The position numbers and the translations under genes were made by a program. The notes under the pieces were generated by a model. It worked only from the letters and a program-made list of their open reading frames with translations. It ran no database searches and was not told the DNA's origin. Below, piece by piece: positions 49,294 to 60,928 of a stretch of DNA of 64,000 nucleotides (its first letter is position 1; each line of letters opens with the position of its first letter). Origin of the DNA: Patescibacteria group bacterium (GTDB taxonomy: Bacteria; Patescibacteriota; Minisyncoccia; UBA6257; GWB1-50-10). The stretch is taken from positions 4,257-68,256 of the forward strand of contig JBBTQX010000008.1 in NCBI GenBank assembly GCA_038065455.1, read 5' to 3'.

Positions 49294-49301
49294 TCTATTT
49301 T

Positions 49302-50042
49302 ATGAGTTTATCACAATATCTCCTTAACATCATCTTCCCGCCCATCTGCCTCTCCTGCAAAAAATATATCGTTCCCGATAAAGAGAAGAAATTCCTTGTT
49401 TGCCCGGATTGTCTTTCCAAACTCTCCTTTATGCCGGGTTTTTTGTGCCCCGTCTGTTTCAGAAGATTGCCCGAAGGGAAAATTCCTCCAGCCGGCGGAT
49501 GTCATTCCGACTCCCAGTTTATACTTGCCACTCCTCTCAAATATTCCGATCCAACGACTCGGGAACTTATCCATATGTTCAAATATGCCAAGCTCAAAGC
49601 CGCCGCCGAGCCGCTCGTCTCCATTCTCGGGGATTATTTGAATTCGTCCATTTGTAATTTGTCATTAGACATTAGGAATTTTGTTTTTATTCCCATTCCA
49701 TTACATCCGAAAAAACAAAGGGAACGCGGTTTTAACCAGGCGCTCGTCATTGCCGAAGGATTGAAAACTCGACTGAATATCTTTCGGGAGGTTCCCATTA
49801 TTTCCAACACGCTTTTCAAAAAAGAATCGACCAATTCCCAGACCGAACAGAAAGATTACGCGTCGCGGGAGAATAATGTCCGCGGCGGCTTCGGCCTGAG
49901 AAATCCGGAACTCGTTGTTGAAAAGAATGTTTTTATTGTTGACGATGTTTTCACTTCCGGCGCCACGATGCGGGAGGCCGTCCGAGTTTTGAAATCCGCC
50001 GGCGCGAAAAAGATTGTCGCGATTACTATCGCAAAGGCGTAG
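49302..50042 (+). CDS. comF: ComF-family phosphoribosyltransferase-domain protein
   Basis: N-terminal Cys cluster (CLSCKK..CPDC..CPVC) and PRT motif VFIVDDVFTSGATM. Confidence 0.8.
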   Translation: MSLSQYLLNIIFPPICLSCKKYIVPDKEKKFLVCPDCLSKLSFMPGFLCPVCFRRLPEGKIPPAGGCHSDSQFILATPLKYSDPTTRELIHMFKYAKLKAAAEPLVSILGDYLNSSICNLSLDIRNFVFIPIPLHPKKQRERGFNQALVIAEGLKTRLNIFREVPIISNTLFKKESTNSQTEQKDYASRENNVRGGFGLRNPELVVEKNVFIVDDVFTSGATMREAVRVLKSAGAKKIVAITIAKA

Positions 50043-50054
50043 GGGATTTTAATC

Positions 50055-52502
50055 TTATCGCTCTCTAAAGATACGGCGCCTAAGAAGAGGGGTACTGTCA
50101 GCCGAAATTGTTTTTTCCGCTACACAGGAATTCCCATCCGAATCGGTTACCGTGAGCGAAACATCTAATGGCATCTTTTTAACGGTTTCTTTCGTCGGAG
50201 TAACCGAGGGGTTTTTTGGCTCGGCATCAAGAAATTCCCAAAAAATGCTCCCGGGCGTACTGGAACGATAATCCGTAGTATTGGTAAATGTTACGACTGA
50301 TTCTTTCGCAAATTTAAGGGGCGTCCAAGTAAAATCTACTAACGGATAATAACGCGCCGGAGTTGTCATTGTTGCGGGGTTGGCAGAATCTTCCCAATCG
50401 GAGAATCCGGCGATGCCGTCCGAAGCCTGAACCGACACAAAAAATTCCGTACTGGCTCCTATATTGGCTATCGGGTTGTTTAACCTTCCAAACCGGTCGC
50501 TCCCTACTGAAACGGTGTCAATCGTCAAATTGTCGGAAGATTTAATTATTTTTATATCGGCGGACGTTTGTGGGTTGCCATCCGGATCGGAATAATCCCA
50601 AGTTACCCGATAGAAAGGATTTGCTTGGCACCAAGCATCCGCCTCCCGGATAATCTGTACGTTAGAAACGACTGGCGGTTGATTTAAAATAACGGCGCTC
50701 ACTGTGCAATTACTCGCTTTACTGACAGTACATTCCGGCTTGGTGAACGCCAGCCAGCCAACGATATCCCCGCCCCAGGCCGAACCTACAAAATTAATTG
50801 AATCAAAAGAAACTCCATATAAACTGCCGTCTGCCGCTGTTCCACCCAAACTCACCCAGCCGTCCCAATTCGGATTGCCGGTATTTTTCGGCGCGAGAAA
50901 ACGCGCCCAGCCGGTAACGGCGCCGGTATTAAGATCTTTTCTTGCTTCGCAAATCCCTGATGGACAGTCAGCTAAATCGCTCTTATTAAAAGAGAGCCAG
51001 CCATAATCTTCATTGCTATCAATCGCCGCCCAAGCGGAACCCGAGAAAAGCCCGGCGCGGTCAATCTGAACGCTGTATTGAGGATCGCCGGTATTCCATG
51101 CCGGAATTTGATAATCGGAATTGAAATTCACCCACCCAACGCCTTTTCCATCGATTGTCGCCCAAGCATTACCCCGAAGGGAAAGCGCCATATTCAGATT
51201 TACGGAAACTAGTGTGGAATATTCGGAGTAAGAACCGCCAAAATCAGCTCTCACGCGATAGGTATATGTATGACCAAACGCCAAATTATCATCGAGATAC
51301 TCCGCTCGAGCTTTAGCAGACGGCGGAAGAGCGATTTTCCCCGCCAGAGTTTCAGGGCCACCGCCAATAGACCGGTAAATATTGTAATTCCCAGAGTAGA
51401 GCGGATTCGGAAAAGTGTTATCCCAAGAAATTCTGACATTGCCCTTGGTTCCATTCACATAATAAATCTGGGCCGTCGGATTCTGGGGCGCATTCGCGAT
51501 TGTAACGGAAGAAATATTTGAAAAATCGGAACAGCCGCCGCTTGTCGTACAACCCCGCACTTTATAGGAATACTTCTGATTGGTGATAATACTGGAATCT
51601 TCATAATGAATCGTTCCACCGTTAGCCGTTTTCCCAAGAAAATTGGGTGAACCACCGAAAGGAGCGCGATGAATCTCGTAGTAATCCTGACCGGTGCCCG
51701 CCGTCCAACTCAAATTAACTTGACTTGGCCGAAATTGGTAAGGCGCGATAAGATCGGTCGGTGTTGTCGGCACCCCGATAGGCGTTGAAGGAATTTTATC
51801 GGAATAAATTTTATCTCCAGTCGCGCAGCCGTAATCGCTTTCAAAACTCCTAACTTGGTAATAGTAAACGCCCGCCGGGCTAATATTCCCGGTATAGAAA
51901 TAGTGTCCGTTAATATCTTTGTTGCCAACGAGAGAAGTATAAAAATAAGTAAGATTTGAATCTGTCGTTCCGCGCCAAATTTCGAATCCGCCATACTGTG
52001 AGCTTGGCGGTGTTGCGTCATCCCAAATCAAATCAACTTGGCTGTCACCGCTCTTACCGGTTACAACAAGATTTGACGGATTAGTTGGTTTGGTTAAGAT
52101 TATTGTTTTTATCGTCAACGGACTTGAATCAACCCAATTTGAAACAGTTCCGTTGCTATTGTCCACCGCTTGAATGTGATATCGGTAATTCGAAAAGGAG
52201 TTGACGGGATTAATAGGTAAATTTAAATGTTCGGCGGTCAGGTTGGGCGTGGTCGCGACGGGTTTTACGCCGGTGTTGAAATCCCCAGCCGTCGTGTATT
52301 CGATAGAATAGGTAACGGTCGAAGGATTCCCATTCGCTTCCCAATTCAAATCAATCGCGCAGGCTGATTTGGCAGTGATATTAAAACCCACCGGCGGCTG
52401 AACTGCCGCGGAAACTAAAGTCGCCGAGGAGACGAAAAATCCCGAGAATAAAAAGAGAAGTATCGCGCGCTTGCTCATTGAATTAATTATAGCAAAATTC
52501 AT
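50055..52502 (-). CDS. large secreted surface protein with Fn3-like modules and GW..SFN-type repeats
   Basis: Signal peptide, repeats AWATIDGKGVGWVNFNSD / AWAAIDSNEDYGWLSFNKSD / GDIVGWLAFTKPEC. Shares the repeat type with 17829..18812. Confidence 0.6.
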   Translation of the reverse strand: MNFAIINSMSKRAILLFLFSGFFVSSATLVSAAVQPPVGFNITAKSACAIDLNWEANGNPSTVTYSIEYTTAGDFNTGVKPVATTPNLTAEHLNLPINPVNSFSNYRYHIQAVDNSNGTVSNWVDSSPLTIKTIILTKPTNPSNLVVTGKSGDSQVDLIWDDATPPSSQYGGFEIWRGTTDSNLTYFYTSLVGNKDINGHYFYTGNISPAGVYYYQVRSFESDYGCATGDKIYSDKIPSTPIGVPTTPTDLIAPYQFRPSQVNLSWTAGTGQDYYEIHRAPFGGSPNFLGKTANGGTIHYEDSSIITNQKYSYKVRGCTTSGGCSDFSNISSVTIANAPQNPTAQIYYVNGTKGNVRISWDNTFPNPLYSGNYNIYRSIGGGPETLAGKIALPPSAKARAEYLDDNLAFGHTYTYRVRADFGGSYSEYSTLVSVNLNMALSLRGNAWATIDGKGVGWVNFNSDYQIPAWNTGDPQYSVQIDRAGLFSGSAWAAIDSNEDYGWLSFNKSDLADCPSGICEARKDLNTGAVTGWARFLAPKNTGNPNWDGWVSLGGTAADGSLYGVSFDSINFVGSAWGGDIVGWLAFTKPECTVSKASNCTVSAVILNQPPVVSNVQIIREADAWCQANPFYRVTWDYSDPDGNPQTSADIKIIKSSDNLTIDTVSVGSDRFGRLNNPIANIGASTEFFVSVQASDGIAGFSDWEDSANPATMTTPARYYPLVDFTWTPLKFAKESVVTFTNTTDYRSSTPGSIFWEFLDAEPKNPSVTPTKETVKKMPLDVSLTVTDSDGNSCVAEKTISADSTPLLRRRIFRER

Positions 52503-53560
52503 GCCTTTTTGACGGAATAGTTTTCAGCGGCAAACTTATACTGTTCCAAAAAAATCTTCTTGAATGGCTGGATAGAATTCAATTCATAAAAGACGAGGGT
52601 TGCTTCCCGATAGTCGCTTTCTTCCACACTCCGGTAAGAAAGTGGCGCTAAATTATTAGCCAAAAGAATGGCATTCGCGATTAATCGTCCAGTACGCTTG
52701 TTGCCATCTTCAAAGGGCTGGATATAGCTTATGCCCAACAAAGCGAAAAAAGCTTTGGCATAAGGATCCTTCTGTTTCCCTATCGAGGCAATGAAAGACT
52801 CAACTGCCTCCTCTATCTGAAATCTGTTGTCCAGAGGCATGTATTTGGATCCAGCAACTCCGACTGCGGAACTGCGCCAACCCGTCTTTACGTTCAAATT
52901 TTTAACCAAAAGCTTGTGAACTTCCCTCATATTAACCTTGGTCAGTTTCTTAAATTCCTTGACGTTATTAAAAACCAGGTTAAACGCTTCCTTATGATTC
53001 AATATCATTTGTGCTTCTTCTCTCCCGTGGCCAGCCGCTTTCTCTCCCCTAATCAAAAGTTTTTCCGTATCCAGCAAGGTATATGTATTACCTTCTATTT
53101 TGGAAGACTTCCAAGACAGTTCTATCACAAACCTTTCCAGTTCTTTTTTGGATATCGCAGGAGAAAGATTTTTTATTTTTTTCCCATACTCCAAAGTTTT
53201 AACCTCCAAGAGGTTCTTTTCTTCTTTTTGGAAAGGGTTAAGCTTAAAATATTCAAGCAGATTAAAATTGAACTTGGAATCGCCGAATCTCTTATCGGGT
53301 TCTCCGAAACAATATTCCTTTGCGTTAATCTCCGCGCTAAAGCGTCCTGGAACGGCTATTTTATAAACGGTGGATCTGCCGAATCCGGAAACCTCCAAAA
53401 ACCCGACCCGACTCATCTCCGAAAGGCTTCTTTTTACCGTAACCAAAGATGTTTTCTCGCCGGATTTTAAAAGTAAGTCATGGACGCCGGATGATTGCTG
53501 ATTTCCGTTCTTTAAAAACAGAAGAATTATCAACTGTTGGTTTTTGGTTAATTTATCCAT
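52499..53560 (-). CDS. Fic/Doc family protein with N-terminal wHTH
   Basis: Fic motif HPFEDGNKRTGR. Confidence 0.85.
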   Translation of the reverse strand: MDKLTKNQQLIILLFLKNGNQQSSGVHDLLLKSGEKTSLVTVKRSLSEMSRVGFLEVSGFGRSTVYKIAVPGRFSAEINAKEYCFGEPDKRFGDSKFNFNLLEYFKLNPFQKEEKNLLEVKTLEYGKKIKNLSPAISKKELERFVIELSWKSSKIEGNTYTLLDTEKLLIRGEKAAGHGREEAQMILNHKEAFNLVFNNVKEFKKLTKVNMREVHKLLVKNLNVKTGWRSSAVGVAGSKYMPLDNRFQIEEAVESFIASIGKQKDPYAKAFFALLGISYIQPFEDGNKRTGRLIANAILLANNLAPLSYRSVEESDYREATLVFYELNSIQPFKKIFLEQYKFAAENYSVKKA

Positions 53561-53564
53561 TTCT

Positions 53565-53612
53565 TTCGTATCTTTTTAACCATATAATCGTATCATATTG
53601 ATACGATTATTT
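53565..53612. repeat. 47-nt repeat containing the palindrome aatcgtatcatattgatacgatt (copy 1; copy 2 at 58784..58830)
   Basis: Near-identical to ttcgtatctttttgactaaataatcgtatcatattgatacgattatt at 58784. Confidence 0.7.
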
Positions 53613-53807
53613 AAAATGGGGTTAGAACTTATATGTTTTTTCCGATCTTTTTTCCAGCGCGATGATAAAAATGCTGTTTTTGTCCGAAACGCGGAAGATA
53701 ACACGCATATTCCCCTTTCTGACTCGGAATAAATCATCCCGCCCTTTGAGTTTTTTAATATCTAAGGTGGCAATATCGCTTTTATGGCAAAAAGTATATC
53801 GTGATCT
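53576..53807 (-). pseudogene. RelE/ParE-like toxin gene remnant (N-terminally truncated, no start codon, run-on C-terminus)
   Basis: Minus-strand frame reads ..LDIKKLKGRDDLFRVRKGNMRVIFRVSDKNSIFIIALEKRSEK.., collinear with LDLKKLRGGGDIFRIRKGSMRIIFRILGNGDVFILAVERRAEK of the intact toxin at 58868..59107. Begins directly at the AbiEii stop codon. Confidence 0.6.
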
Positions 53808-54563
53808 CTATGCAATTTGTCTTTTCATTTCGTCTTCGAGCATCCGGCTGAAATCCCGGATTATGGCCTGCTGATCGGCCGGCAGAAACGCCCCCAATTC
53901 TCCGTGAAAATCTATTTCTCTCGCGTTTTTTGTTATTTCATCCTTCACATCCGCCAACTTCCTTTTTTGTTCGGATGAAAGCATTCTCTTTCTCATCAAA
54001 AAATACAAATCATAAAAGTCGCGGGGCTTCTTCCGTTCCAAAAGAGCACCGAATATTTTTTCTTCAACCAGCTCCATTTGCGACAGATGAACCGCCGTAT
54101 AGGGGGGAATGAAATCGCTTGCCACGCTGTCTATCTCGGCCTTGATTTCCCTGCCATTTCGGGCGGAAACGTTTATTTCTACCCCCACCGGCGGATAGTC
54201 GAGCGCGCGGAGGGTCGCCAATCCGAAATAACCGCCGCTCGTCGTTCCGAAGCGTTCGCCGAGTTCCACGCGAACGCCAAAATTTTCCATGGTAGCCAGA
54301 ATCTTGATAAATAAGCTTTCCACGAAATATTTCGTTTTATTCGAATGAACCTGTGTCAGTGAAAAATCCAAATCCTCGGAAAAACGCGGACTGCCATAAA
54401 TGATGCGTAGAGCCGTGCCGCCCTTGAAAAGCAATTTTTCCGATTCCGGCAGTTTGTAAAGCTCGCTTAAAAAAATGTGCTGGAAATATTCCCGGATGAT
54501 ATTCGGAAAAACGCCTGTCTGGCATTGGGCGGCCAATTTTTCCAAACTTTCCGATGAAATCAT
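53808..54563 (-). CDS. AbiEii-type nucleotidyltransferase toxin (type IV TA)
   Basis: LLFKGGTALRIIYGSPRFSEDLDFSL is the NTase motif of AbiEii/DUF1814. Confidence 0.75.
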   Translation of the reverse strand: MISSESLEKLAAQCQTGVFPNIIREYFQHIFLSELYKLPESEKLLFKGGTALRIIYGSPRFSEDLDFSLTQVHSNKTKYFVESLFIKILATMENFGVRVELGERFGTTSGGYFGLATLRALDYPPVGVEINVSARNGREIKAEIDSVASDFIPPYTAVHLSQMELVEEKIFGALLERKKPRDFYDLYFLMRKRMLSSEQKRKLADVKDEITKNAREIDFHGELGAFLPADQQAIIRDFSRMLEDEMKRQIA

Positions 54564-55159
54564 TTTAGAGTCCTTTTTATAATACCTATAAGTTCCCGGT
54601 TTTGAAACAATGAGGCGTATTGAATCGCTTTATTCGGATTTATTCTTTCCTTATTGAACCGCGACAGCGGCTTCAATCTATCCAGCATCCTAAAGTAGTT
54701 GGTGTCAACGAAAGCTTTTTCCGGACTGGCGATGAAAAACCCCATTCCTTTTTGTTTTACAATGCCATAGCCGGCGAACGCCGTTTTTTTCACTCGCCGA
54801 TATGAATAAATCTTGCCTAGAATTTTGAAGCGCCGGGGATTTTTCGAGGTGATCGAGGTAATCTCGTAAACGTTTTCCGGAATGACGCGATGGTAAGACA
54901 AGGCCAATTCGAGAGAAATATAGGATGGTTCGCACATTTTGTTCGCGATGAAAAATTCCGTCGGCAAAGCGTCGGGGAAAGCGTAAATCCCCCGTTTCAA
55001 CCGGACAATGAAGCCTTTCTTGGTATACCGATAAAGAAGGAAACTGGCCGCAATTTTGGAACTCCCGAACAACCGGCAAACATCCAGAGCAGAGAAGACA
55101 AGTAGTTTTTTCCCTTTTATTTCCTTGTTAAAACTATGCCAATTCACTAATTTAGCCAT
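54560..55159 (-). CDS. AbiEi-type antitoxin/transcriptional regulator
   Basis: Overlapping start/stop with AbiEii. N-terminal wHTH-like segment. Confidence 0.6.
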   Translation of the reverse strand: MAKLVNWHSFNKEIKGKKLLVFSALDVCRLFGSSKIAASFLLYRYTKKGFIVRLKRGIYAFPDALPTEFFIANKMCEPSYISLELALSYHRVIPENVYEITSITSKNPRRFKILGKIYSYRRVKKTAFAGYGIVKQKGMGFFIASPEKAFVDTNYFRMLDRLKPLSRFNKERINPNKAIQYASLFQNRELIGIIKRTLK

Positions 55160-55239
55160 ATTGCTAACTTACTGGAATGACGTTAAAAAGTCAAGCAATT
55201 ACCGAGATTAATGGTTGTTAATGGGTCAGCCACCATTGT

Positions 55240-55668
55240 TTGTTCTCGGTCTTCCTACCCCTCTTAATGTCTGTTCAAGGTCAAATTTTTTCACCGTACT
55301 GCCTATCCAATTATCACCGCCATAAGGATTCCCTTTATCTTACGAAGTCGGACTTCGTAAAATTCGATAAAATGGGTGGAAAAACAAGGAGAAGGGAAAG
55401 GATGAAAATAAAATTTAATGACGGCTGGGCTTTTGCGATCGTGAACGGCCGTTTGGCTGAAATTCACTTTGATAAAAAATACGGCCCTTGGGGCCATTGC
55501 TATGTTAATAAAGAAGAATATAAAACAAAGCGAGAACAAAAATGGATTAAAGAAGACACCCTAAAATATCAATTTTCTTATAGGAGCGGTTATTACTTTG
55601 ATAAAATTAGGAAAATAAGATTTAAAATACCAAGCCGACAGAAATTATTTTCTGATTCAATTTTGTAA
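55240..55668 (+). CDS. hypothetical protein (probable true start near 55372)
   Basis: ORF; upstream part overlaps the 20-bp palindrome. Confidence 0.3.
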   Translation: MFSVFLPLLMSVQGQIFSPYCLSNYHRHKDSLYLTKSDFVKFDKMGGKTRRRERMKIKFNDGWAFAIVNGRLAEIHFDKKYGPWGHCYVNKEEYKTKREQKWIKEDTLKYQFSYRSGYYFDKIRKIRFKIPSRQKLFSDSIL

Positions 55669-55670
55669 GA

Positions 55671-55916
55671 TCACTTCGGATGCGTTCTGATATCAAGGAG
55701 AATATAAGTATTACCTTCAATTAAAAAATAAAAGCGGATATTTCTATCTACTCTGGCCTGCCAAATCCCGCGGGCCTCTTCGTATTTCTTTGCGCGCAGA
55801 GAAGGGTGCCGCAAATCCCGAAGAAGAAAACTAACTTGTTTATAGAATTTATTTCTAACTTCCGGAGAAAACTTTTTCAAGCTCTCCTTAAATCCGATAT
55901 AATACCAAACGATCAT
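55671..55916 (-). CDS. RelE/ParE-family toxin
   Basis: KKYEEARGIWQARVDRNIRFYFLIEGNTYILLDIRTHPK is a RelE-fold C-terminus. Start overlaps the antitoxin stop. Confidence 0.7.
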   Translation of the reverse strand: MIVWYYIGFKESLKKFSPEVRNKFYKQVSFLLRDLRHPSLRAKKYEEARGIWQARVDRNIRFYFLIEGNTYILLDIRTHPK

Positions 55917-56128
55917 TACCTCTCTAATGAGTATCTAAGAGCTTTTACGGAAGAAAATGGCCCTTTTATCTTCTCTTTCTTTACTTCTCTGATCACCTTA
56001 TCCAAATCAACGTCTAATTTTGTATATTTTTTTTTCACTACACGCAAAAACCGCTCATACTCTTTACGAGGAATAGCCACAAGCTCTTCGCCTTTGGTTA
56101 TTTTTTGAGGAATAGTAATAGTAGTCAT
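55916..56128 (-). CDS. putative antitoxin of the RelE/ParE-like toxin
   Basis: 70 aa, directly upstream, overlapping ATGA junction. Confidence 0.5.
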   Translation of the reverse strand: MTTITIPQKITKGEELVAIPRKEYERFLRVVKKKYTKLDVDLDKVIREVKKEKIKGPFSSVKALRYSLER

Positions 56129-56244
56129 GCATTTACCTTACCATGGTCAAACAAACGAAATCAAACTGTCAAAAGGAGGGCGGATTCACAAAAAACACCG
56201 TCACCCCGAAACAAAAGCGCAGAAAATTATCTCTCATCTTCATT

Positions 56245-57375
56245 TATTATGCATAAGGCCACATACATATTGCACTCGGTGAAGCCAGCGCTTCACCATG
56301 AAAATCCATTGTAAATATGCCGGCATCAAGGGGAGTATGACTGTCTATCGGGACGCGCTACGCTACCGGTATATGATCCGACCCCAAGCGTTGCGGAAGG
56401 CAAAAATCCTCGCCTTCGCTGAAAAGCACGGCACCTTGACTGCGCTCGAGGCCTTTGAGGTGAAGCGGCGCACGTTCTTTGACTGGAAAAAGAAGTGGGT
56501 AGCGGGCGGGAAGATTCCCGAGACACTCAACGGGAAATCACGGGCGCCGAGGACAAAACGGAAGCGCCGGTGGTCCGATGAGGTGATTGCCGAGATCAAG
56601 CGGCAGCGCTGGGAGCATCCCAATCTCGGCAAGGATAAACTGCATCCGCTTCTTGCCGAATTCTGCGCCGAGAAGAAGCTGGCTTGCCCTCAGTCAAAGA
56701 CCATCGGACGGTTGATCGCGGATCTGGGCGGATTGCGGATGCACCCCAAAAAGATCTCGCACTTCGGAAAAATCAAGATCGCCAACCGTCAAAAAGTGTT
56801 GAGAAAACCTATGGATTTCAAGGCCGAGTATCCTGGCCACTGCGTGGCCCTGGACACCATTGAGAAGCACGTTGGGGGCAGACGCTATTACGTGATCACG
56901 TTTGAAGACCTGTTTACACGATTTTGCTTCGCCTGGGAAACGACCTCGCACGCATCGCTTGCGGCAAAAGAGTTTTTTACGCTTTGCCTTAAGGTTTTTC
57001 CGTTCCCGATTTCTTTTGTCCTTACGGACAACGGCAGCGAGTTCATGAAACACTTTGACGCAGAGCTCCGCCGGCTCCACCTCGTCCATTATCATACTTA
57101 TCCGAAGACGCCAAAGATGAATGTGCACATGGAGCGGTTCAATCGCACCGTCCAAGACGAGTTTGTGGATTATCACACAGCTGATCTGCAAACGCCGGAT
57201 GCGTTCAACCGCAAGCTCGTGGACTATCTCGTCTGGTACAATACGAAGCGTGTGCACTATGCTTTCAAAAACAAATTATCACCCGTGCAGTTCATGCTAC
57301 AATTACCACAACTAGCAGTCGCAAAAATGCCCACCGAGTGCAAAAGTGGGTGGCCTCATACATATTATAGCAAAA
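56245..57375 (+). mobile_element. IS481-family insertion sequence with ~30-40 bp imperfect terminal inverted repeats
   Basis: Left end tatgcataaggccacatacatattgcactcggtg vs reverse complement of right end tatgtatgaggccacccacttttgcactcggtg. Internal DDE transposase. Visibly more G+C-rich than the flanks. Confidence 0.65.
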
Positions 57376-57437
57376 TGACCAAATTTATGGTAAAATTAAA
57401 GTATGGAGAAATATTTTTGGGATACGAATCCCGATAA
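56298..57437 (+). CDS. IS481-family DDE transposase (integrase core)
   Basis: ALDTIE ... VLTDNGSEF ... ERFNRTVQDE form the D,D(35)E triad, with an N-terminal HTH. The ORF reads through the right IR into the flank. Confidence 0.75.
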   Translation: MKIHCKYAGIKGSMTVYRDALRYRYMIRPQALRKAKILAFAEKHGTLTALEAFEVKRRTFFDWKKKWVAGGKIPETLNGKSRAPRTKRKRRWSDEVIAEIKRQRWEHPNLGKDKLHPLLAEFCAEKKLACPQSKTIGRLIADLGGLRMHPKKISHFGKIKIANRQKVLRKPMDFKAEYPGHCVALDTIEKHVGGRRYYVITFEDLFTRFCFAWETTSHASLAAKEFFTLCLKVFPFPISFVLTDNGSEFMKHFDAELRRLHLVHYHTYPKTPKMNVHMERFNRTVQDEFVDYHTADLQTPDAFNRKLVDYLVWYNTKRVHYAFKNKLSPVQFMLQLPQLAVAKMPTECKSGWPHTYYSKMTKFMVKLKYGEIFLGYESR

Positions 57438-57618
57438 ATTGGATTTTAAAACAAATAAAAAATATATTATAGAACGTATCCTGGAAATGGGCGACGAAGA
57501 GGCGGTTCGTCGGCTTTTCGGCATATTTTCAAAAAAAGATATCCTTGAAGTTGTTGGGAACAACCGCCGAATTTCCCCAAAAAGCGCTAATTATTGGAGG
57601 TTGTTGCTAACTCGCTAA
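57403..57618 (+). CDS. small conserved protein (FWDTNPDK family), probable partner of the downstream NTase; paralog at 58450..58680
   Basis: MEKYFWDTNPDKLDFKTNKKYIIERI vs LFWDTDPQKIDLKKNAQYVIERI in the paralog. Confidence 0.45.
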   Translation: MEKYFWDTNPDKLDFKTNKKYIIERILEMGDEEAVRRLFGIFSKKDILEVVGNNRRISPKSANYWRLLLTR

Positions 57619-57630
57619 CCCCGCACAAAA

Positions 57631-58257
57631 ATGGACTTCCATAAAGAAATTCTTCCGGCTGGCACGTTGGAAACATTTTCTAAATTGTCCCATTCTTCCT
57701 TGATTGGAAATTTCTATTTAGCCGGCGGGACGGGTCTGGCGCTTCAACTGGGACACCGTTTTTCAAACGATCTGGATTTTTTTACGCCTAAAAAATTCAA
57801 CGAGGAAACAACGCTTCAGGAAATAATTTCTTTGGGAAAATTAAGACTTGAAAAGAAAGAAGCACAAGCCATTGTGTGCCAATTAGATGAAACGAAACTG
57901 TCGTTTTTGGGATATGGATATCCCCTACTTGAACCGCTTAAACATTTTGACGGCATATCTGTGGCTGAAATATCTGATATCGCCTGTATGAAAATTGACG
58001 CCATCGCCAGTCGGGGAACAAAGAGAGATTTTATTGATGTGTACTTCGTTATGAAAGAGATAATGCCACTCAATGAGATACTGGCTAATTTCAAAAAAAA
58101 ATATGCTAAGTTGAATTATAATACCGTGCATATCAAAAAAAGTTTGGTATATTTCAACGACGCAGAAAATGACGCAATGCCGCGGATGATAAAGCCGGTC
58201 TACTGGGAGAAAGTGAAAGAAACATTCGAAAGCGAGGTAAAAAAACTCGGACTATAG
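57631..58257 (+). CDS. AbiEii-like nucleotidyltransferase (DUF1814-type)
   Basis: FYLAGGTGLALQLGHRFSNDLDFF is the NTase GS..D.D motif. Confidence 0.7.
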   Translation: MDFHKEILPAGTLETFSKLSHSSLIGNFYLAGGTGLALQLGHRFSNDLDFFTPKKFNEETTLQEIISLGKLRLEKKEAQAIVCQLDETKLSFLGYGYPLLEPLKHFDGISVAEISDIACMKIDAIASRGTKRDFIDVYFVMKEIMPLNEILANFKKKYAKLNYNTVHIKKSLVYFNDAENDAMPRMIKPVYWEKVKETFESEVKKLGL

Positions 58258-58449
58258 ACTTTTCGTATCATTTTAATTCAAGATTTAGGGATGGGTTCAC
58301 AGAAAACACCGTCACTCCGAAACAAAAGTGGAAAAGGTTTTTCCTCACCTGATAATATTATCGGCTCCGGATCGCTTTCGGCATCTTCAAAATAAACCAA
58401 GCTTTTCAGAATATGACGGTAGTCATGAGCAATATATCAAAATACAAGC

Positions 58450-58680
58450 TCAATTTGCCCTTAGAATTAGGGTCCATAGGTTTTTAGTATCGGGTCTTAA
58501 ACACCTTGACTTGGAGATTATCTTCCGAAGCAACGTTTTATCATAAAAATCCAGAACCCAGCGGGCTTCTTGATCATTGCCGAAATCGGCGATGCGTTCA
58601 ATAACGTATTGAGCGTTCTTTTTCAGGTCTATTTTTTGGGGATCAGTGTCCCAAAATAACGCCTGCCTTAGCTTTATCAC
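58450..58680 (-). CDS. small conserved protein, paralog of 57403..57618
   Basis: Shared N-terminal motif, opposite orientation. Confidence 0.45.
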   Translation of the reverse strand: MIKLRQALFWDTDPQKIDLKKNAQYVIERIADFGNDQEARWVLDFYDKTLLRKIISKSRCLRPDTKNLWTLILRAN

Positions 58681-58783
58681 CCTCTAACTATACCAGAATT
58701 CGCCAAATCCTGCCACCGGCGCCGTTTCTCAAAAACGAGAGGAAAACCGATTGTTGGAATTTGGTCAAATTAGCCACTCTATT

Positions 58784-58830
58784 TTCGTATCTTTTTGACT
58801 AAATAATCGTATCATATTGATACGATTATT
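58784..58830. repeat. 47-nt palindromic repeat, copy 2
   Basis: See copy 1 at 53565..53612. Lies downstream of the intact RelE-like toxin. Confidence 0.7.
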
Positions 58831-58867
58831 CAAGATGACCGAATCAATATGATAAATCAAACGCTGA

Positions 58868-59107
58868 TCAGCGGTAGGTTTTTTCGGCTCTCCGCTCTAC
58901 GGCCAGAATAAAAACGTCGCCGTTCCCTAGAATACGAAAGATTATCCGCATACTGCCTTTTCGTATTCTGAATATGTCTCCTCCGCCCCGTAATTTCTTC
59001 AGATCCAAGCCTAGAAATTTCCCTTGTTGAATCTTATTAAGAAGTTTTTTTAGCTTCTCGCGTTCTTTTACCGTGAGTTTCCCGAGCTCCTTAGCTATCC
59101 GATCCAT
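58868..59107 (-). CDS. RelE/ParE-like toxin
   Basis: DIFRIRKGSMRIIFRILGNGDVFILAVERRAEKTY. Confidence 0.65.
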   Translation of the reverse strand: MDRIAKELGKLTVKEREKLKKLLNKIQQGKFLGLDLKKLRGGGDIFRIRKGSMRIIFRILGNGDVFILAVERRAEKTYR

Positions 59108-59114
59108 CTTGGTT

Positions 59115-59330
59115 TTACAACCTGGAGAGTAAATCCCTTATCTTTACACCCCCCCTCTTTATCCGCATAAAATCAGCCGCCTTTTCCCACCCCATTTCTT
59201 CATCTATTGAAGAGACACGAAACATTGGTTTGGAGCGGCGCACCACTATAACCGGCGTTCCGGCCCGGGCCGCACGGGCGTATTTTTCCACGTTCATTCT
59301 AAACTCTTTTAACCCGACAATATTTTCCAT
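59115..59330 (-). CDS. Phd/YefM-like antitoxin
   Basis: LKEFRMNVEKYARAARAGTPVIVVRRSKPMFRV. Confidence 0.6.
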   Translation of the reverse strand: MENIVGLKEFRMNVEKYARAARAGTPVIVVRRSKPMFRVSSIDEEMGWEKAADFMRIKRGGVKIRDLLSRL

Positions 59331-59689
59331 ACCTATAAGTTAATCTAAAGGTAAACCAAAGTCAATCCTTCAAGAATTAGCCGTGGAATAATGGATTACA
59401 CACAGTTATCTCGCTATGGCGAGATAACTGTGTGTAGGAATTTCAATAAGAACATTCTCCATTTCAATCCGTGCCACTGCCGCCTAAAATGGGAGATGTA
59501 ATTGATAAATCACTACCCTATATACACGATCGTGTATATAGGGTAGTGAAAATTTAAATGATTGAAATAAGATACCTCAAAGTAATTGAGTGATGGCTGA
59601 AAGAGAGGGATGATAATTCGGAGAGAATAGAAAAAATTACTTTAGAATAATATCTATCGGAGTTCAACTTCGTAAGATTTATAGATTAA

Positions 59690-59899
59690 CTAAAAAGAGT
59701 CCGGGGCAAGACCGGTATGTTTTGCGATGCGGGCGAGCATTCGTGGACCTATTTCTTCTCTATCATGAAAGGCGAAAGTAAAATCGGGGTAGTCAACTCT
59801 TTCAAGAATTCTATGCGATCCTCTCTGTCTTTTTATTCTCCAACCAAGTTTAAGTAAGGTCTTCAAAACTTCTCGGGCTTTAACGGCGCGCCATTGCAT
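59690..59899 (-). CDS. hicA: HicA toxin (mRNA interferase)
   Basis: LLKLGWRIKRQRGSHRIL. Confidence 0.7.
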   Translation of the reverse strand: MQWRAVKAREVLKTLLKLGWRIKRQRGSHRILERVDYPDFTFAFHDREEIGPRMLARIAKHTGLAPDSF

Positions 59900-60155
59900 G
59901 TTCCATCAAACGCAAAATGACCGTGGGAGCATTGCCATGCTCTAGGTCATCAGCCATCGTTCGAAGAGCGACTGCATACGCTTTTCGTGTCGCCTCATTT
60001 TTTGTTTTTCCGTAGGCCATGGCGCCCGCGATTTTTGGAATTTCCGCGATCCACCGTCCGTCTTCTTCTTGGTCTAACTCAACAGCAAAAAACGGTGCTG
60101 GTCCCCTCTTTTTTAATTCTTTTGTCATGCTCAAACTATACAACCAAAAAATCAA
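59880..60155 (-). CDS. hicB: HicB antitoxin
   Basis: RNase H-like fold N-terminus FFAVELDQEEDGRWIAEIPKIAGAMAYGKTKNEA. Confidence 0.6.
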   Translation of the reverse strand: MIFWLYSLSMTKELKKRGPAPFFAVELDQEEDGRWIAEIPKIAGAMAYGKTKNEATRKAYAVALRTMADDLEHGNAPTVILRLMEHAMARR

Positions 60156-60277
60156 AAGTCAAAATTCGGCATTGCCACCTCAAGACAAAGCACAATCGCA
60201 TCACGAACTCGCTTTTTTAATATTGATTGTAGCGCCCAGAATTAAAGAGGAAATAAATGATTAGTGTCCGACATCAA

Positions 60278-60496
60278 TCAGATTTTAGTCCACCCCTCTC
60301 TCGCGATATCCGCTTGCCGGAGAATTCGTTTAAGAAGATCAACGCTTATTTCTTTCTCATGAGGGTTAGGAATGGTAAAGACTAAATCCCCTTTTATCAT
60401 GTAGGGATGTTTACTTTCTTGAAAAGGACCTTCAAAACCGAATTTCTTTAACTTCCGCACTAACTGCCGCCAAGAGATTGGCGCCAGCTTAGACAT
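60278..60496 (-). CDS. HicA/YcfA-family toxin (second copy)
   Basis: LKKFGFEGPFQESKHPYMIK. Confidence 0.6.
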   Translation of the reverse strand: MSKLAPISWRQLVRKLKKFGFEGPFQESKHPYMIKGDLVFTIPNPHEKEISVDLLKRILRQADIAREGWTKI

Positions 60497-60758
60497 TGAT
60501 TTTAGCAGTAACTCGAGAACTTATTTTGAAGCTTGGAATAGGCAAGTTTTTCTTTAATCTCACAATCAACCAACCTTCCAAGGTTTCTAAAAGATTGTAA
60601 CGGCATTCCTCCAATGTTTTCCCCGCTGCCCAAACGCCTTTCAAACCGGAAATCTCGCCGTAATATCGCTTACCGCCATCAATAATTTCATAGCGAGCTT
60701 TTCCCAGATTGGAATAAATAAAATCTTGAAGCATATATTTGAAGTATACCACACTCAA
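60489..60758 (-). CDS. HicB/UPF0150-family antitoxin (second copy)
   Basis: YEIIDGGKRYYGEISGLKGVWAAGKTLEECRYNLLETLEGWL. Confidence 0.6.
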   Translation of the reverse strand: MSVVYFKYMLQDFIYSNLGKARYEIIDGGKRYYGEISGLKGVWAAGKTLEECRYNLLETLEGWLIVRLKKNLPIPSFKISSRVTAKINV

Positions 60759-60928
60759 AAATCGAAGTCAAAACAATGATCTCTAGAAAGTCGGACTTCT
60801 TTAAGCTTGCAAAAAACGGTACCTGACACTGTTTCCGCGAAGGCGGTTTACTAGTTTACGAAGTCGGACTTCGTAAGATTGTAATACGAAGAGAAAGGAT
60901 ATCTGACACTGTTTCCCCCTTTTGATTC

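What the first reader, a model, noticed from the sequence alone, without database searches (positions are those of the whole stretch)
52499..60758. Dense toxin-antitoxin / abortive-infection island with mosaic duplications
Within 8 kb lie Fic, an AbiEi/AbiEii pair, RelE-like toxin plus antitoxin, an IS481-family IS, a small-protein plus AbiEii-like NTase pair (and an inverted paralog of the small protein), a second RelE/Phd pair, and two HicAB pairs. Several elements are duplicated and diverged (two small FWDT(N/D)P proteins, two RelE-like toxins, two ~60-nt R1 repeats, two 47-nt palindromic repeats). This indicates recurrent recombination or insertion typical of a defense/addiction island.
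Basis: partly seen in the sequence, partly recalled or inferred. Interest (0 to 1): 0.55.

Follow-up and report, generated by a model that had tools for sequence, protein, structure and literature searches.

The report
Recombining toxin-antitoxin gene cluster
An 8-kb stretch of a groundwater Patescibacteria (CPR) chromosome holds six toxin-antitoxin gene pairs, an insertion sequence and several gene fragments; this is an ordinary kind of addiction-gene cluster, but one pair joins a known toxin type to a widespread small partner protein that nobody has studied.

Summary
Window 52499-60758 holds these genes:
- AbiEi/AbiEii
- a YoeB/RelE-fold toxin with a conserved 70-aa partner
- a DUF6922 protein with a short AbiEii-like nucleotidyltransferase (NTase)
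- a RelE/ParE-like toxin with Phd
- two HicB-HicA pairs
- a Fic-domain gene
- one IS481-family element (56250-57362, 5-bp target duplication)

Both reported repeats are real. Each is part of a larger decayed duplication that contains gene fragments: a toxin 3' half at 53628-53765, an NTase tail at 58278-58415, a second NTase-tail scrap at 56182-56250, and a probable fic 5' end near 58721-58768.

Related assemblies from the same aquifer show the region is in flux.
- A sister strain has the empty IS site.
- The three events that broke an intact pair each removed the toxin and kept the partner.
- A lineage about 84% identical in the flanking pilus genes is 98-100% identical across Fic-AbiE.

Corrections:
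- The two "RelE-like" toxins are not detectable paralogues.
- The Fic protein lacks the catalytic histidine (QPFEDGNKR). This is conserved in all 120 nearest homologues.
- No integrase or tRNA borders the cluster.

Most novel part: DUF6922 has no literature and no structural match. An NTase directly follows it in 66 of 74 assessable loci across many phyla. It is probably a new antitoxin family for DUF1814 toxins.

The parts
52499..53560 (-). Fic-domain protein (353 aa): N-terminal wHTH-like region, inhibitory-helix motif SSKIEG, and non-canonical active-site motif QPFEDGNKRTGR. Its stop overlaps the start of the 815-aa fn3 surface-protein gene by 4 nt.
   Evidence: PF02661 2.5e-14. The alignment to FICD puts Q where the catalytic H sits and K where the second G sits. 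The same motif occurs in all 120 nearest homologues.
53564..53618 (.). Copy 1 of the 55-nt repeat, holding the palindrome ATAATCGTATCA-TAT-TGATACGATTAT (53584-53610), just upstream of fic.
53628..53765 (-). Pseudogene fragment: the C-terminal 46 codons of a paralogue of the 79-aa RelE/ParE-like toxin, with its stop codon in the same place and no start codon.
   Evidence: tblastn 56.5% identity, E 2e-17; translation; DNA alignment 53490-53765 against 58705-59005, 76%.
53808..54563 (-). AbiEii / DUF1814 nucleotidyltransferase toxin (251 aa).
   Evidence: PF08843 5.8e-26; PADLOC AbiEii 1e-25. The GG..S.DLD and K..R..RD motifs can be read in the sequence.
54560..55159 (-). AbiEi antitoxin/regulator (199 aa), overlapping abiEii by 4 nt.
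   Evidence: PADLOC AbiEi 4.6e-40 over 190 of 199 positions; NCBIfam TAA_AbiEi 3e-8, below its cut-off.
55340..55360 (.). Short palindrome TTACGAAGTCGGACTTCGTAA. Further copies are at 60856-60876, with degenerate ones at 59655-59679 and 60783-60807. These palindromes sit at module junctions.
   Evidence: In strain L020 two copies bracket a 400-nt variable insert.
55402..55668 (+). 88-aa ORF of unknown function, convergent with the 81-aa toxin gene.
   Evidence: Called as a gene in other assemblies. No hit in Pfam, NCBIfam, PADLOC, PHROGs or PDB.
55671..55916 (-). 81-aa YoeB/RelE-fold toxin.
   Evidence: 1958 homologues; 14 of 32 hit ParE_toxin; profile against YoeB 8yxv E 3.5e-3; AF2 pLDDT 92 with Foldseek matches to YoeB/RelE/YafQ at TM 0.8. 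It is disrupted by a 106-nt deletion in strain L020.
55916..56128 (-). 70-aa partner of the 81-aa toxin (putative antitoxin), overlapping it by 1 nt. The family is not in Pfam.
   Evidence: Homologous small gene (48-49% identity) directly upstream of toxin homologues in two other CPR genomes. It is kept intact in L020, where the toxin is broken.
56182..56250 (.). Copy 1 of the 69-nt repeat. Its minus-strand frame reads LLFRGDGVFCES, the same tail as the NTase fragment at 58278-58415. It ends exactly at the IS insertion point.
56250..57362 (+). IS481-family insertion sequence, 1113 bp. It has imperfect terminal inverted repeats of about 31 nt and a 5-bp target duplication TATTA (56245-56249 and 57363-57367). 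The transposase ORF (56298-57437) runs through the right end into flanking DNA.
   Evidence: NF033577 8e-47. The inverted repeats can be read. Strain L020 has the empty site with one TATTA. Contigs of other assemblies break at both IS ends.
57403..57618 (+). DUF6922 small protein (71 aa), proposed antitoxin of the downstream NTase.
   Evidence: PF21956 8e-17. An NTase lies directly downstream in 66 of 74 assessable loci from many phyla.
57631..58257 (+). Short AbiEii-like / DUF1814 nucleotidyltransferase (208 aa), proposed toxin.
   Evidence: PF08843 2e-15. G32 G33 R43 S45 D47 D49 K121 R128 D133 D136 are invariant across the subfamily. The nearest solved relative is 4o8s/4ok0, E 8e-6.
58278..58415 (-). 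Fragment of a second NTase: about the last 45 codons (...SLVYFEDAESDPEP...), directly after the inverted DUF6922 gene. It contains copy 2 of the 69-nt repeat (58293-58361).
   Evidence: tblastn NTase aa 167-184, 72% identity, E 3e-4, and frame translation. The motif matches typical family members.
58450..58680 (-). Second DUF6922 gene (76 aa, 34% identical to the first), now an orphan because its NTase is deleted.
   Evidence: PF21956 8e-18. It is truncated further in strain L020.
58721..58837 (.). Copy 2 of the duplicated segment: a probable fic 5' remnant (58721-58768) followed by the 55-nt repeat (58783-58837), whose palindrome is at 58803-58829.
   Evidence: blastn 53505-53618 against 58722-58837, 78.6%; alignment; the Fic aa 4-19 match is weak, E 0.1.
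58868..59107 (-). 79-aa RelE/ParE-like toxin.
   Evidence: ParE_toxin 9e-4, below its cut-off; PHROG RelE-like toxin 1.7e-8.
59115..59330 (-). Phd/YefM-family antitoxin (71 aa).
   Evidence: TIGR01552 26.6 bits, above its 20.8 cut-off; PF02604 4.8e-6.
59397..59549 (.). Two perfect palindromes (18+4+18 nt at 59397-59436 and 20+20 nt at 59510-59549) in the 360-nt spacer between phd and hicA1. The second is a rearrangement breakpoint.
   Evidence: The L020 deletion starts at 59543, and a copy of the 40-nt palindrome lies elsewhere in L020.
59690..59899 (-). HicA1 toxin (69 aa).
   Evidence: PF07927 2.6e-15. It is deleted in strain L020 (window 59543-59861 absent) while hicB1 is kept.
59880..60128 (-). 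HicB1-like antitoxin (82 aa from the ATG at 60128), overlapping hicA1 by 20 nt.
   Evidence: Weak UPF0150 2e-3 and HicB_lk 0.058. Other assemblies call an 82-aa gene here. A sigma-70-like site lies at 60162-60135.
60278..60496 (-). HicA2 toxin (72 aa).
   Evidence: PF07927 1e-10.
60489..60734 (-). HicB2 antitoxin (81 aa, UPF0150 domain only), overlapping hicA2 by 8 nt.
   Evidence: PF21748 3.8e-25; sigma-70-like site at 60771-60743.
60783..60916 (.). Tandemly duplicated junction (units of about 73-80 nt) carrying two copies of the short palindrome. Its length varies between strains.
   Evidence: L001 lacks 60837-60901, and L020 has a 400-nt palindrome-rich insert here.

Best explanation
This is a chromosomal pile-up of independent toxin-antitoxin (addiction / abortive-infection) modules in a groundwater Patescibacteria genome. 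It lies between a type IV pilus/ComF/surface-protein block and large surface-protein genes. It grows and decays by homologous and illegitimate recombination and by IS insertion, not through an integrase of its own.

Six two-gene modules are intact.
- AbiEi-AbiEii: a DUF1814 NTase toxin, expected by homology to block translation by nucleotidylating tRNA 3' ends.
- The 70-aa partner with a YoeB/RelE-fold toxin, expected to be a ribosome-dependent mRNA nuclease.
- DUF6922 with a short DUF1814 NTase.
- Phd with a RelE/ParE-like toxin.
- Two HicB-HicA pairs, whose toxins are mRNA interferases.

I propose that DUF6922 is the antitoxin of its NTase. It would work either by sequestering the toxin or, as shown for the unrelated MenA1 and MenA3, by inducing autophosphorylation of the invariant Ser45 in the S-x-D-x-D active-site loop.

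Shown here: the family assignments, the IS boundaries and empty site, the gene fragments, the strain-specific indels, the cross-lineage near-identity, and the conserved DUF6922-NTase adjacency.

Inferred: that each toxin is active, the biochemical targets, and the antitoxin role and mechanism of DUF6922.
For: Family assignments
- All pairs overlap or abut: 4 nt, 1 nt, a 12-nt gap, a 7-nt gap, 20 nt and 8 nt.

IS element
- Terminal inverted repeats and TATTA duplication.
- Exact empty site in L020-L024.

Gene fragments
- Toxin 3' half, E 2e-17.
- NTase tail, E 3e-4.
- The repeats are embedded in a duplicated segment of about 280 nt.

Losses that broke a pair always hit the toxin
- NTase-b is lost and DUF6922b kept in the window.
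- The 81-aa toxin carries a 106-nt frameshifting deletion in L020, with the 70-aa partner intact.
- hicA1 is deleted in L020 with hicB1 intact.

Exchange between lineages
- L010 and L011 are 77-90% identical to the window in the pilus genes (44-50 kb).
- They are 98.4-100% identical across 51.5-55.2 kb.

DUF6922-NTase
- 66 of 80 loci from GTDB species representatives have the NTase directly downstream on the same strand. Six more are too short to judge.
- The phyla include Patescibacteria, Aminicenantes, Anaerolineae, Gammaproteobacteria, Bacillota and Omnitrophota.
- The family has 2330 clusters at 50% identity.
- The catalytic residues and the Ser two residues before the first Asp are invariant. 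That Ser is the phospho-acceptor position in MenT1/MenT3 (PMC11375011).
- Antitoxins of DUF1814 toxins are known to belong to unrelated families (PMC11375011, PMC10435456).
Against: - No experiment shows toxicity or neutralisation for any module here.
- DUF6922 has no detectable similarity to AbiEi, MenA1 or any solved structure, so its role rests only on gene order, conservation and one toxin-loss event.
- Three toxin-specific losses are few.
- HicB1 and the 79-aa toxin score below the Pfam cut-offs.
- The cross-lineage comparison rests on two contigs (L010, L011) that end inside the cluster, so the right-hand limit of the exchanged tract is unknown.
- GC content of the cluster (0.37-0.49) is only slightly below that of the window.
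Confidence: 0.8

Rival explanations
1. DUF6922 is not an antitoxin. It is an accessory subunit or regulator of the NTase, for example an RNA- or DNA-binding specificity factor or a transcription factor, and the pair is a housekeeping RNA-modifying enzyme rather than a TA module.
For: - The DUF6922 profile has only a faint resemblance to Pumilio RNA-binding repeats (E 1.3e-3, with no single significant stretch).
- It has no similarity to known antitoxins.
- Orphan DUF6922 genes exist in 8 of 74 loci.
Against: - It sits among five other TA modules.
- The order (small gene first, tight spacing) is typical of TA modules.
- The NTase belongs to the DUF1814 toxin superfamily and has all catalytic residues.
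- The only broken copy lost the NTase and kept DUF6922. This is the asymmetry expected of an antitoxin.
- The family is patchy across phyla, as mobile TA genes are.
Confidence: 0.25
2. The region is a cassette array of a sedentary integron (or an integrase-less attC cluster), and the palindromes at module junctions are attC-like recombination sites.
For: - Strongly folding palindromes lie between modules.
- Indels begin or end at them.
- A 400-nt insert in L020 is bracketed by two copies of the same palindrome.
- From general knowledge, TA cassettes are typical of chromosomal integrons.
Against: - No tyrosine recombinase appears in any of the gene calls retrieved for the window (about 7-21.5, 24-41 and 42.5-56 kb) or in the roughly 7 kb to the right.
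- The palindromes are 21-40 nt, perfect, and unrelated to each other in sequence. I could not read the RYYYAAC/GTTRRRY core sites in them.
- The genes lie in both orientations.
- Most modules have no palindrome after them.
Confidence: 0.04
3. The cluster is the remnant of a prophage, an ICE or an integrated plasmid.
For: - It has a dense TA content and an IS element.
- GC content is slightly lower.
- The 79-aa toxin matches a phage RelE-like family.
Against: - There is no integrase, tRNA gene, att-like direct repeat, structural phage gene or conjugation gene in or beside the cluster.
- The other small proteins have no PHROG hits.
Confidence: 0.05
4. The modules are non-functional relics that persist only by drift.
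For: - There are four gene fragments (one only probable) and further truncations in the sister strain.
- The IS sits 40 nt upstream of the DUF6922 start codon and separates the operon from its original upstream region.
Against: - Twelve ORFs in six pairs are intact with catalytic motifs preserved.
- The cluster is 97-100% identical between strains whose neighbouring genes are 70-94% identical.
- Deletions hit toxins but never a lone antitoxin of an intact pair. That pattern is expected only if the toxins are active.
Confidence: 0.08

Closest known systems
AbiE (AbiEi/AbiEii) type IV TA / abortive-infection systems, and the homologous MenAT systems of Mycobacterium tuberculosis (DUF1814 NTase toxins)
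   Same: - The pair at 53808-55159 is a standard AbiEi-AbiEii operon with a 4-nt overlap.
- The NTase at 57631-58257 shares the DUF1814 motifs: GG...R.S.DLD and K...R..RD.
- It also has the Ser at the phospho-acceptor position of MenT1 T39 / MenT3 S78 (PMC3985639, PMC11375011).
   Different: - The second NTase is short (208 aa).
- Its nearest solved relative is 4o8s/4ok0, not any MenT.
- Its partner is a 71-aa DUF6922 protein with no similarity to AbiEi/COG5340, MenA1 or any solved structure.
YefM-YoeB / RelBE / ParDE type II TA modules
   Same: - The 81-aa protein has the YoeB/RelE fold and a C-terminal His like YoeB.
- The 79-aa toxin is paired with a Phd/YefM antitoxin.
   Different: - The partner of the 81-aa toxin belongs to a 60-75-aa family that no library recognises.
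- The two toxins are unrelated to each other at the sequence level.
HicAB type II TA modules
   Same: HicA domains score above the Pfam cut-off, and HicB2 has the UPF0150/HicB N-terminal fold.
   Different: - The gene order is hicB then hicA.
- Both HicB proteins are only 81-82 aa. They have no Pfam-detectable domain beyond the UPF0150 region, which leaves little room for a C-terminal DNA-binding domain.
Class II Fic AMP-transferases (FICD, SoFic)
   Same: Fic fold, with the intramolecular inhibitory helix motif (S/T)xxxE(G/N) present as SSKIEG.
   Different: - The active-site motif is QPFEDGNKRxxR instead of HPFx(D/E)GNGRxxR. The catalytic His is replaced by Gln and the second Gly by Lys, as in Doc.
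- This change is conserved in all 120 nearest homologues.
- There is no antitoxin gene.
TA-rich variable regions of bacterial chromosomes (from general knowledge, for example the many TA loci clustered in M. tuberculosis genomic islands or in Vibrio superintegrons)
   Same: There is a high local density of unrelated TA families, decayed copies, IS elements and strain-to-strain variation.
   Different: No integrase or attC machinery was found. The host is an ultra-small-genome Patescibacteria bacterium.

Membership tests
AbiE (AbiEi/AbiEii) | Bicistronic operon with abiEi upstream of, and overlapping, abiEii. | tested here: met
   54560-55159 and 53808-54563 lie on the same strand with a 4-nt overlap.
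AbiE (AbiEi/AbiEii) | The toxin is a DUF1814 NTase with the conserved NTase motifs. | tested here: met
   PF08843 5.8e-26. FKGGTALR...RFSEDLDF and K...RKKPRDFYDL can be read in the translation.
AbiE (AbiEi/AbiEii) | The antitoxin is a two-domain AbiEi (COG5340) with an N-terminal wHTH. | tested here: met
   PADLOC AbiEi 4.6e-40, full length. Pfam AbiEi_4 reaches only 23 bits against a 25-bit cut-off.
AbiE (AbiEi/AbiEii) | Growth inhibition by the toxin, rescue by the antitoxin, and phage abortive infection. | not testable with these tools
   Needs experiments.
DUF6922-NTase pair as a member of the AbiE/MenAT family | DUF1814 NTase with intact catalytic residues. | tested here: met
   PF08843 2.2e-15. 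G32 G33 S45 D47 D49 K121 R128 D133 D136 are invariant in 21 diverse members.
DUF6922-NTase pair as a member of the AbiE/MenAT family | The partner is homologous to a known antitoxin (AbiEi/MenA3/MenA4, MenA1 or MenA2). | tested here: not met
   hhalign against the window's AbiEi gives probability 0.15%. PDB sequence and profile searches find no MenA or AbiEi chain. Foldseek against PDB finds nothing with E below 1.
DUF6922-NTase pair as a member of the AbiE/MenAT family | Conserved two-gene arrangement across genomes. | tested here: met
   66 of 74 assessable loci.
RelE/ParE/YoeB superfamily (81-aa toxin) | RelE/YoeB microbial RNase fold. | tested here: met
   AF2 pLDDT 92. Foldseek finds YoeB, RelE, RelK and YafQ at TM 0.78-0.84, probability 1.00.
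RelE/ParE/YoeB superfamily (81-aa toxin) | Pfam family score above the cut-off. | tested here: not met
   ParE_toxin E 0.03, 15.3 bits against a 23-bit cut-off. However, 14 of 32 close homologues match at E 0.01 or better.
RelE/ParE superfamily (79-aa toxin) with Phd/YefM | Toxin family hit plus an upstream Phd/YefM antitoxin. | tested here: met
   PHROG RelE-like 1.7e-8. ParE_toxin reaches 20.2 bits, below its 23-bit cut-off. TIGR01552 scores above its cut-off for the antitoxin.
HicAB | HicA dsRBD-like toxin domain. | tested here: met
   PF07927 at 56.7 and 42 bits, against a 27-bit cut-off.
HicAB | HicB partner domain. | tested here: inconclusive
   HicB2 hits UPF0150 at 88 bits (met). HicB1 reaches only 18.4 bits, E 2e-3.
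Fic AMP-transferase (SoFic / FICD type) | Active-site motif HxFx(D/E)GNGRxxR with the catalytic His. | tested here: not met
   QPFEDGNKRTGR aligns to HPFIDGNGRTSR of FICD. The change is conserved in 120 of 120 homologues.
Fic AMP-transferase (SoFic / FICD type) | Fic fold, with the inhibitory helix (S/T)xxxE(G/N). | tested here: met
   PF02661 54 bits. SSKIEG aligns to TVAIEG of FICD.
IS481 family | DDE (rve) transposase, terminal inverted repeats and a target-site duplication. | tested here: met
   NF033577 8e-47, 160 bits, below the 224-bit equivalog cut-off. rve 37.6 bits. Inverted repeats of about 31 nt and the 5-bp TATTA duplication. Empty site.
Genomic island with site-specific integration | Integrase and/or a tRNA att site at a border. 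| tested here: not met
   The nearest tRNA is at 34.5 kb. No integrase appears in gene calls covering 42.5-56 kb and about 7 kb beyond 61 kb.

The most novel reading that the evidence does not exclude
DUF6922 is a new, widespread antitoxin family for a distinct short branch of DUF1814 (AbiEii/MenT-like) nucleotidyltransferase toxins. The family has about 2300 clusters at 50% identity in many bacterial phyla. It would be a further structurally unrelated solution for controlling these toxins, possibly by inducing autophosphorylation of the invariant active-site-loop Ser. The natural population here already shows the expected asymmetry: the toxin was deleted and the orphan DUF6922 was kept.
Probability: 0.55. 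Interest if true: 0.5.

Novelty: new member of a known kind. Interest (0 to 1): 0.35.

Why it matters
- TA clusters are common, so the island itself is not a surprise.
- It does show that even minimal-genome Patescibacteria keep and exchange dense addiction-gene clusters.
- It gives a clean natural example of how such clusters turn over, through toxin-first decay, IS insertion, and exchange between lineages that are about 84% identical in their core genes.
- Two by-products can be tested directly:
  - The DUF6922-NTase pair, as an unstudied branch of the AbiE/MenAT family.
  - A very large CPR subfamily of Fic proteins whose catalytic His is replaced by Gln.

Tried and rejected
- **Word-indexed homologue search with DUF6922.** It returned only 6 proteins. 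I reached the family instead through a pattern scan of GTDB genomes and a full HMMER search.
- **Exact look-up of the 379-aa transposase.** It found nothing. A 99.65%-identical copy of the element with a 379-aa transposase gene is in L025.
- **Apparent hicA1 deletion in L003.** This is a run of 100 N from scaffolding, so I dropped it as evidence. Only L020-L022 support the deletion.
- **Apparent shorter or missing HicA genes in L001.** These are gene-calling differences. The DNA encodes intact HicA1 and HicA2.
- **Searches for DUF6922 relatives.** PDB sequence, profile and fold searches gave no credible relative. hhalign against AbiEi was negative.
- **Rfam scan of the island.** It found nothing above noise.
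- **Promoter and terminator scans.** Hits were at the density expected by chance. I used them only to choose between alternative HicB start codons.
- **Unknown proteins.** The 88-aa ORF and the 70-aa partner have no hit in Pfam, NCBIfam, PADLOC, PHROGs or PDB.
- **Integron and prophage readings.** I considered both and rejected them for lack of a recombinase, attC-like sites or phage genes.
- **The two RelE-like toxins as duplicates.** Rejected.

Full report
**Source and setting**

The window comes from a Patescibacteria (CPR) metagenome-assembled genome from the Hainich groundwater wells. The DUF6922 protein is identical to 'MAG: hypothetical protein AAB377_02970 [Patescibacteria group bacterium]', and contigs carrying the same genes are named Hain_H41, Hain_H51 and Hain_H52.

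The gene calls retrieved for the rest of the window (about 7-21.5 kb, 24-41 kb and 42.5-52.5 kb) show housekeeping genes, namely FtsA/FtsZ, HisRS, RecG, LigA, GatCA and the CCA-adding enzyme, plus a type IV pilus operon, ComF and an 815-aa fn3 surface protein. They contain no TA gene and no integrase. To the right of the cluster lie large surface proteins. The six tRNA genes are at 26-34.6 kb.

**Checking the observation**

| Coordinates | Gene | Evidence |
|---|---|---|
| 52499-53560(-) | Fic | PF02661 2.5e-14; PADLOC SoFic 1.4e-18 |
| 53808-54563(-) | AbiEii | PF08843 5.8e-26 |
| 54560-55159(-) | AbiEi | PADLOC 4.6e-40, full length |
| 56298-57437(+) | IS481-family transposase | NF033577 8e-47 |
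| 57403-57618(+) | DUF6922a | PF21956 8e-17 |
| 57631-58257(+) | AbiEii-like NTase | PF08843 2e-15 |
| 58450-58680(-) | DUF6922b | PF21956 8e-18 |
| 58868-59107(-) | RelE/ParE-like toxin (79 aa) | Pfam 9e-4, below cut-off; PHROG 'RelE-like toxin' 1.7e-8 |
| 59115-59330(-) | Phd | TIGR01552 above cut-off |
| 59690-59899(-), 60278-60496(-) | HicA1, HicA2 | PF07927 2.6e-15 and 1e-10 |
| 60489-60734(-) | HicB2 | UPF0150 3.8e-25 |
| 59880-60128(-) | HicB1 | weak, 2e-3 |

The pair at 55671-56128 had no Pfam hit, so I tested it further.
- The 81-aa protein has 1958 homologues, mostly in CPR.
- Of 32 homologues, 14 match ParE_toxin and 4 match YoeB.
- The family profile hits YoeB in the PDB.
- An AlphaFold model (pLDDT 92) superposes on YoeB, RelE and YafQ at TM about 0.8.
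- The 70-aa upstream partner matches no library. A homologous small gene (48-49% identity) overlaps the toxin homologue by 4 nt in two other CPR genomes.

The pair is therefore a conserved YoeB/RelE-type module with an unclassified antitoxin.

Both repeat families exist.
- The 69-nt repeat: 56182-56250 and 58293-58361, 75% identical.
- The 55-nt repeat: 53564-53618 and 58783-58837, 91% identical, with an identical 27-nt palindrome found nowhere else in the window.

One claim fails. The 81-aa and 79-aa toxins have no detectable similarity to each other, so they are not a diverged duplicate.

**What the repeats really are**

A tblastn search of the island proteins against the island DNA shows that both repeats are the best-preserved parts of larger, decayed duplications.

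The 55-nt repeat
- It lies just downstream of the 79-aa toxin gene in copy 2.
- In copy 1 it lies just downstream of a fragment at 53628-53765 that encodes the last 46 residues of a paralogue of that toxin: LDIKKLKGRDDLFRVRKGNMRVIFRVSDKNSIFIIALEKRSEKTYKF* (56% identity, E 2e-17).
- The homology runs on for about 60 nt into the 5' end of fic in copy 1 and into non-coding DNA upstream of DUF6922b in copy 2.
- Overall, 53490-53765 aligns with 58705-59005 at 76% identity.
- So a [phd]-toxin-palindrome-fic arrangement was duplicated. One copy then lost its 5' side to abiE, and the other lost fic.

The 69-nt repeat
- It encodes, on the minus strand, the C-terminal tail of a second NTase.
- Directly after DUF6922b lies a fragment...SLVYFEDAESDPEP...LLFRSDGVFCEP (58415-58278). 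It is 72% identical to NTase residues 167-184 (E 3e-4) and typical of the family.
- The other repeat copy (56182-56250) keeps only LLFRGDGVFCES.
- DUF6922b is thus an orphan whose NTase has been deleted.

**The insertion sequence**

The IS spans 56250-57362 (1113 bp).
- Its imperfect terminal inverted repeats are about 31 nt: TGCATAAGGCCAC...TTGCACTCGGTG, and the reverse complement at the right end.
- It has a 5-bp TATTA target duplication.
- Contigs from other assemblies end inside the two IS ends, at distances that fit their k-mer sizes.
- Strain L020-L024 from well H51 carries the uninterrupted site.
- The IS sits 40 nt upstream of the DUF6922a start codon.
- The transposase ORF reads through the right end into flanking DNA and stops 35 nt inside DUF6922a.

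**Population evidence that the cluster is in flux**

A blastn map of the window against L020 gives these identities:
- 97-100% across the cluster;
- 97-100% at 46-49 kb;
- only 70-94% across ComF and the 815-aa gene.

Relative to the window, L020 lacks the following:
- The IS.
- 106 nt inside the 81-aa toxin gene. This shifts the frame, and the 70-aa partner stays intact.
- 58274-58349.
- 58604-58843, which removes the 5' end of the orphan DUF6922b.
- 59543-59861, which removes hicA1 and leaves hicB1 intact.

L020 also carries an extra 400-nt palindrome-rich insert between hicB2 and the next gene. This insert contains a third copy of the 69-nt repeat and a copy of the 40-nt palindrome from 59510-59549.

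All three events that broke an intact pair removed the toxin and spared the partner: NTase-b, the 81-aa toxin and HicA1. That is what the addiction logic predicts if the toxins are active.

A more distant lineage, assembled independently from two other samples (L010 and L011), is only 77-90% identical in the pilus genes at 44-50 kb. It is 98.4-100% identical from the 5' part of the 815-aa gene through Fic, AbiEii and AbiEi, at 51.5-55.2 kb. This indicates a recent exchange of that segment between lineages. Both contigs end at 55231, so the right-hand limit of the shared tract is unknown.

**The DUF6922-NTase pair**

This is the least known component.
- No paper in the library mentions DUF6922.
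- A pattern scan of one genome per GTDB species found at least 537 relatives. The phyla include Patescibacteria, Aminicenantes, Anaerolineae, Gammaproteobacteria, Bacillota, Omnitrophota and Elusimicrobia.
- In the best 80 loci, an AbiEii-like NTase domain starts within -30 to +300 nt downstream on the same strand in 66. Six loci are too short to judge and eight are orphans.
- A full HMMER search finds 2330 clusters at 50% identity, mostly stand-alone proteins of 70-130 aa.

NTase subfamily
- The median length is about 217 aa.
- The NTase motifs are invariant, including Ser45 two residues before the first catalytic Asp.
- That position is the phospho-acceptor T39 in MenT1 and S78 in MenT3, where unrelated antitoxins induce inactivating autophosphorylation (PMC11375011).
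- By profile, the nearest solved relative is 4o8s/4ok0 and not a MenT.

DUF6922 protein
- It is modelled as a small four-helix protein (pLDDT 81).
- It has no Foldseek match in the PDB.
- It has no profile similarity to AbiEi.
- It shows only a faint Pumilio-repeat-like signal.

My reading is that it is a new antitoxin family for a distinct short DUF1814 branch. This rests on gene order, conservation, genomic company and one toxin-loss event. It has not been tested experimentally.

**The Fic gene**

- It has the Fic fold and the class II inhibitory motif SSKIEG.
- Its active-site motif is QPFEDGNKRTGR. The alignment to FICD puts Gln at the catalytic His and Lys at the second Gly.
- All 120 nearest homologues (57-67% identity, out of at least 7863) share QPFxDGNKRxxR. 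This is therefore a conserved non-canonical subfamily and not a dead copy.
- Homologues occur in varied contexts, sometimes three in a row, and without a partner gene.
- It should not be counted as a canonical Fic toxin or a SoFic defence gene.
- The palindrome upstream of it is a candidate operator for its N-terminal wHTH. This is inference only.

**Island status**

- No integrase, tRNA or att-like repeat borders the region.
- GC content is only slightly low.
- The palindromes at junctions fold strongly and coincide with indel breakpoints. They are short, perfect and dissimilar to one another, and no recombinase gene was found. An integron-like reading is therefore unlikely.
- The best description is a chromosomal TA accumulation site. 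It is shaped by recombination and IS activity, and part of it has moved between lineages.

**Verdict**

The finding is real and its interpretation holds, with the corrections above. As a class of object it is ordinary, and I rate its interest as modest. The DUF6922-NTase pair and the Gln-type Fic subfamily are the parts worth experimental follow-up.

Noticed in passing
window 52499-53560: The Fic protein belongs to a very large CPR subfamily (at least 7863 homologues) whose active-site motif is QPFxDGNKRxxR. The catalytic His is replaced by Gln and there is a Doc-like Lys, while the inhibitory-helix Glu is kept. Homologues can occur three in tandem (L106). The function is unknown. The gene's stop overlaps the start of the 815-aa surface-protein gene by 4 nt.
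   Followed up: partly
window 49000-52500 (ComF and the 815-aa fn3 surface-protein gene): Between otherwise near-identical strains (window against L020 and L022), this segment is only 70-94% identical, with a hypervariable patch at about 51500-52000 (70-75%). The TA cluster next to it is 97-100% identical. This suggests diversifying selection or allele swapping in the surface protein.
   Followed up: no
window 59397-59436 and 59510-59549; L020 12841-13237: There are two perfect long palindromes in the phd-hicA1 spacer. The 40-nt one is a deletion breakpoint and reappears elsewhere in strain L020, inside a 400-nt array of several different palindromes bracketed by two copies of TTACGAAGTCGGACTTCGTAA. 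This may be a small mobile or recombinogenic element family. No function is assigned.
   Followed up: partly
window 57363-57437: The IS481-family transposase ORF has no stop codon inside the element. Its last 25 codons come from flanking DNA, and the ORF overlaps the DUF6922a start by 35 nt. A sigma-70-like site at 57276-57303 faces outward from the IS right end. It is a chance-level match, so its effect on the downstream operon is unknown.
   Followed up: no
window 55402-55668: An 88-aa ORF is called as a gene in several assemblies but has no hit in any library. It is convergent with the YoeB-like toxin gene and has the short palindrome about 40 nt upstream of its start.
   Followed up: partly
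window 60929-63454: The 841-aa protein has long Gly-rich tracts (weak Gly_rich_2 hit). Its length differs between strains (841 aa against 805 aa), and 60969-61841 has no alignment to L020.
   Followed up: no
L010 707-1423 and L011 707-1423: In the distant lineage that shares the Fic-AbiE segment, AbiEii is called as 238 aa starting 35 nt after abiEi ends, instead of 251 aa overlapping it. This may be a 5' mutation in the toxin gene. I did not inspect it at base level.
   Followed up: no
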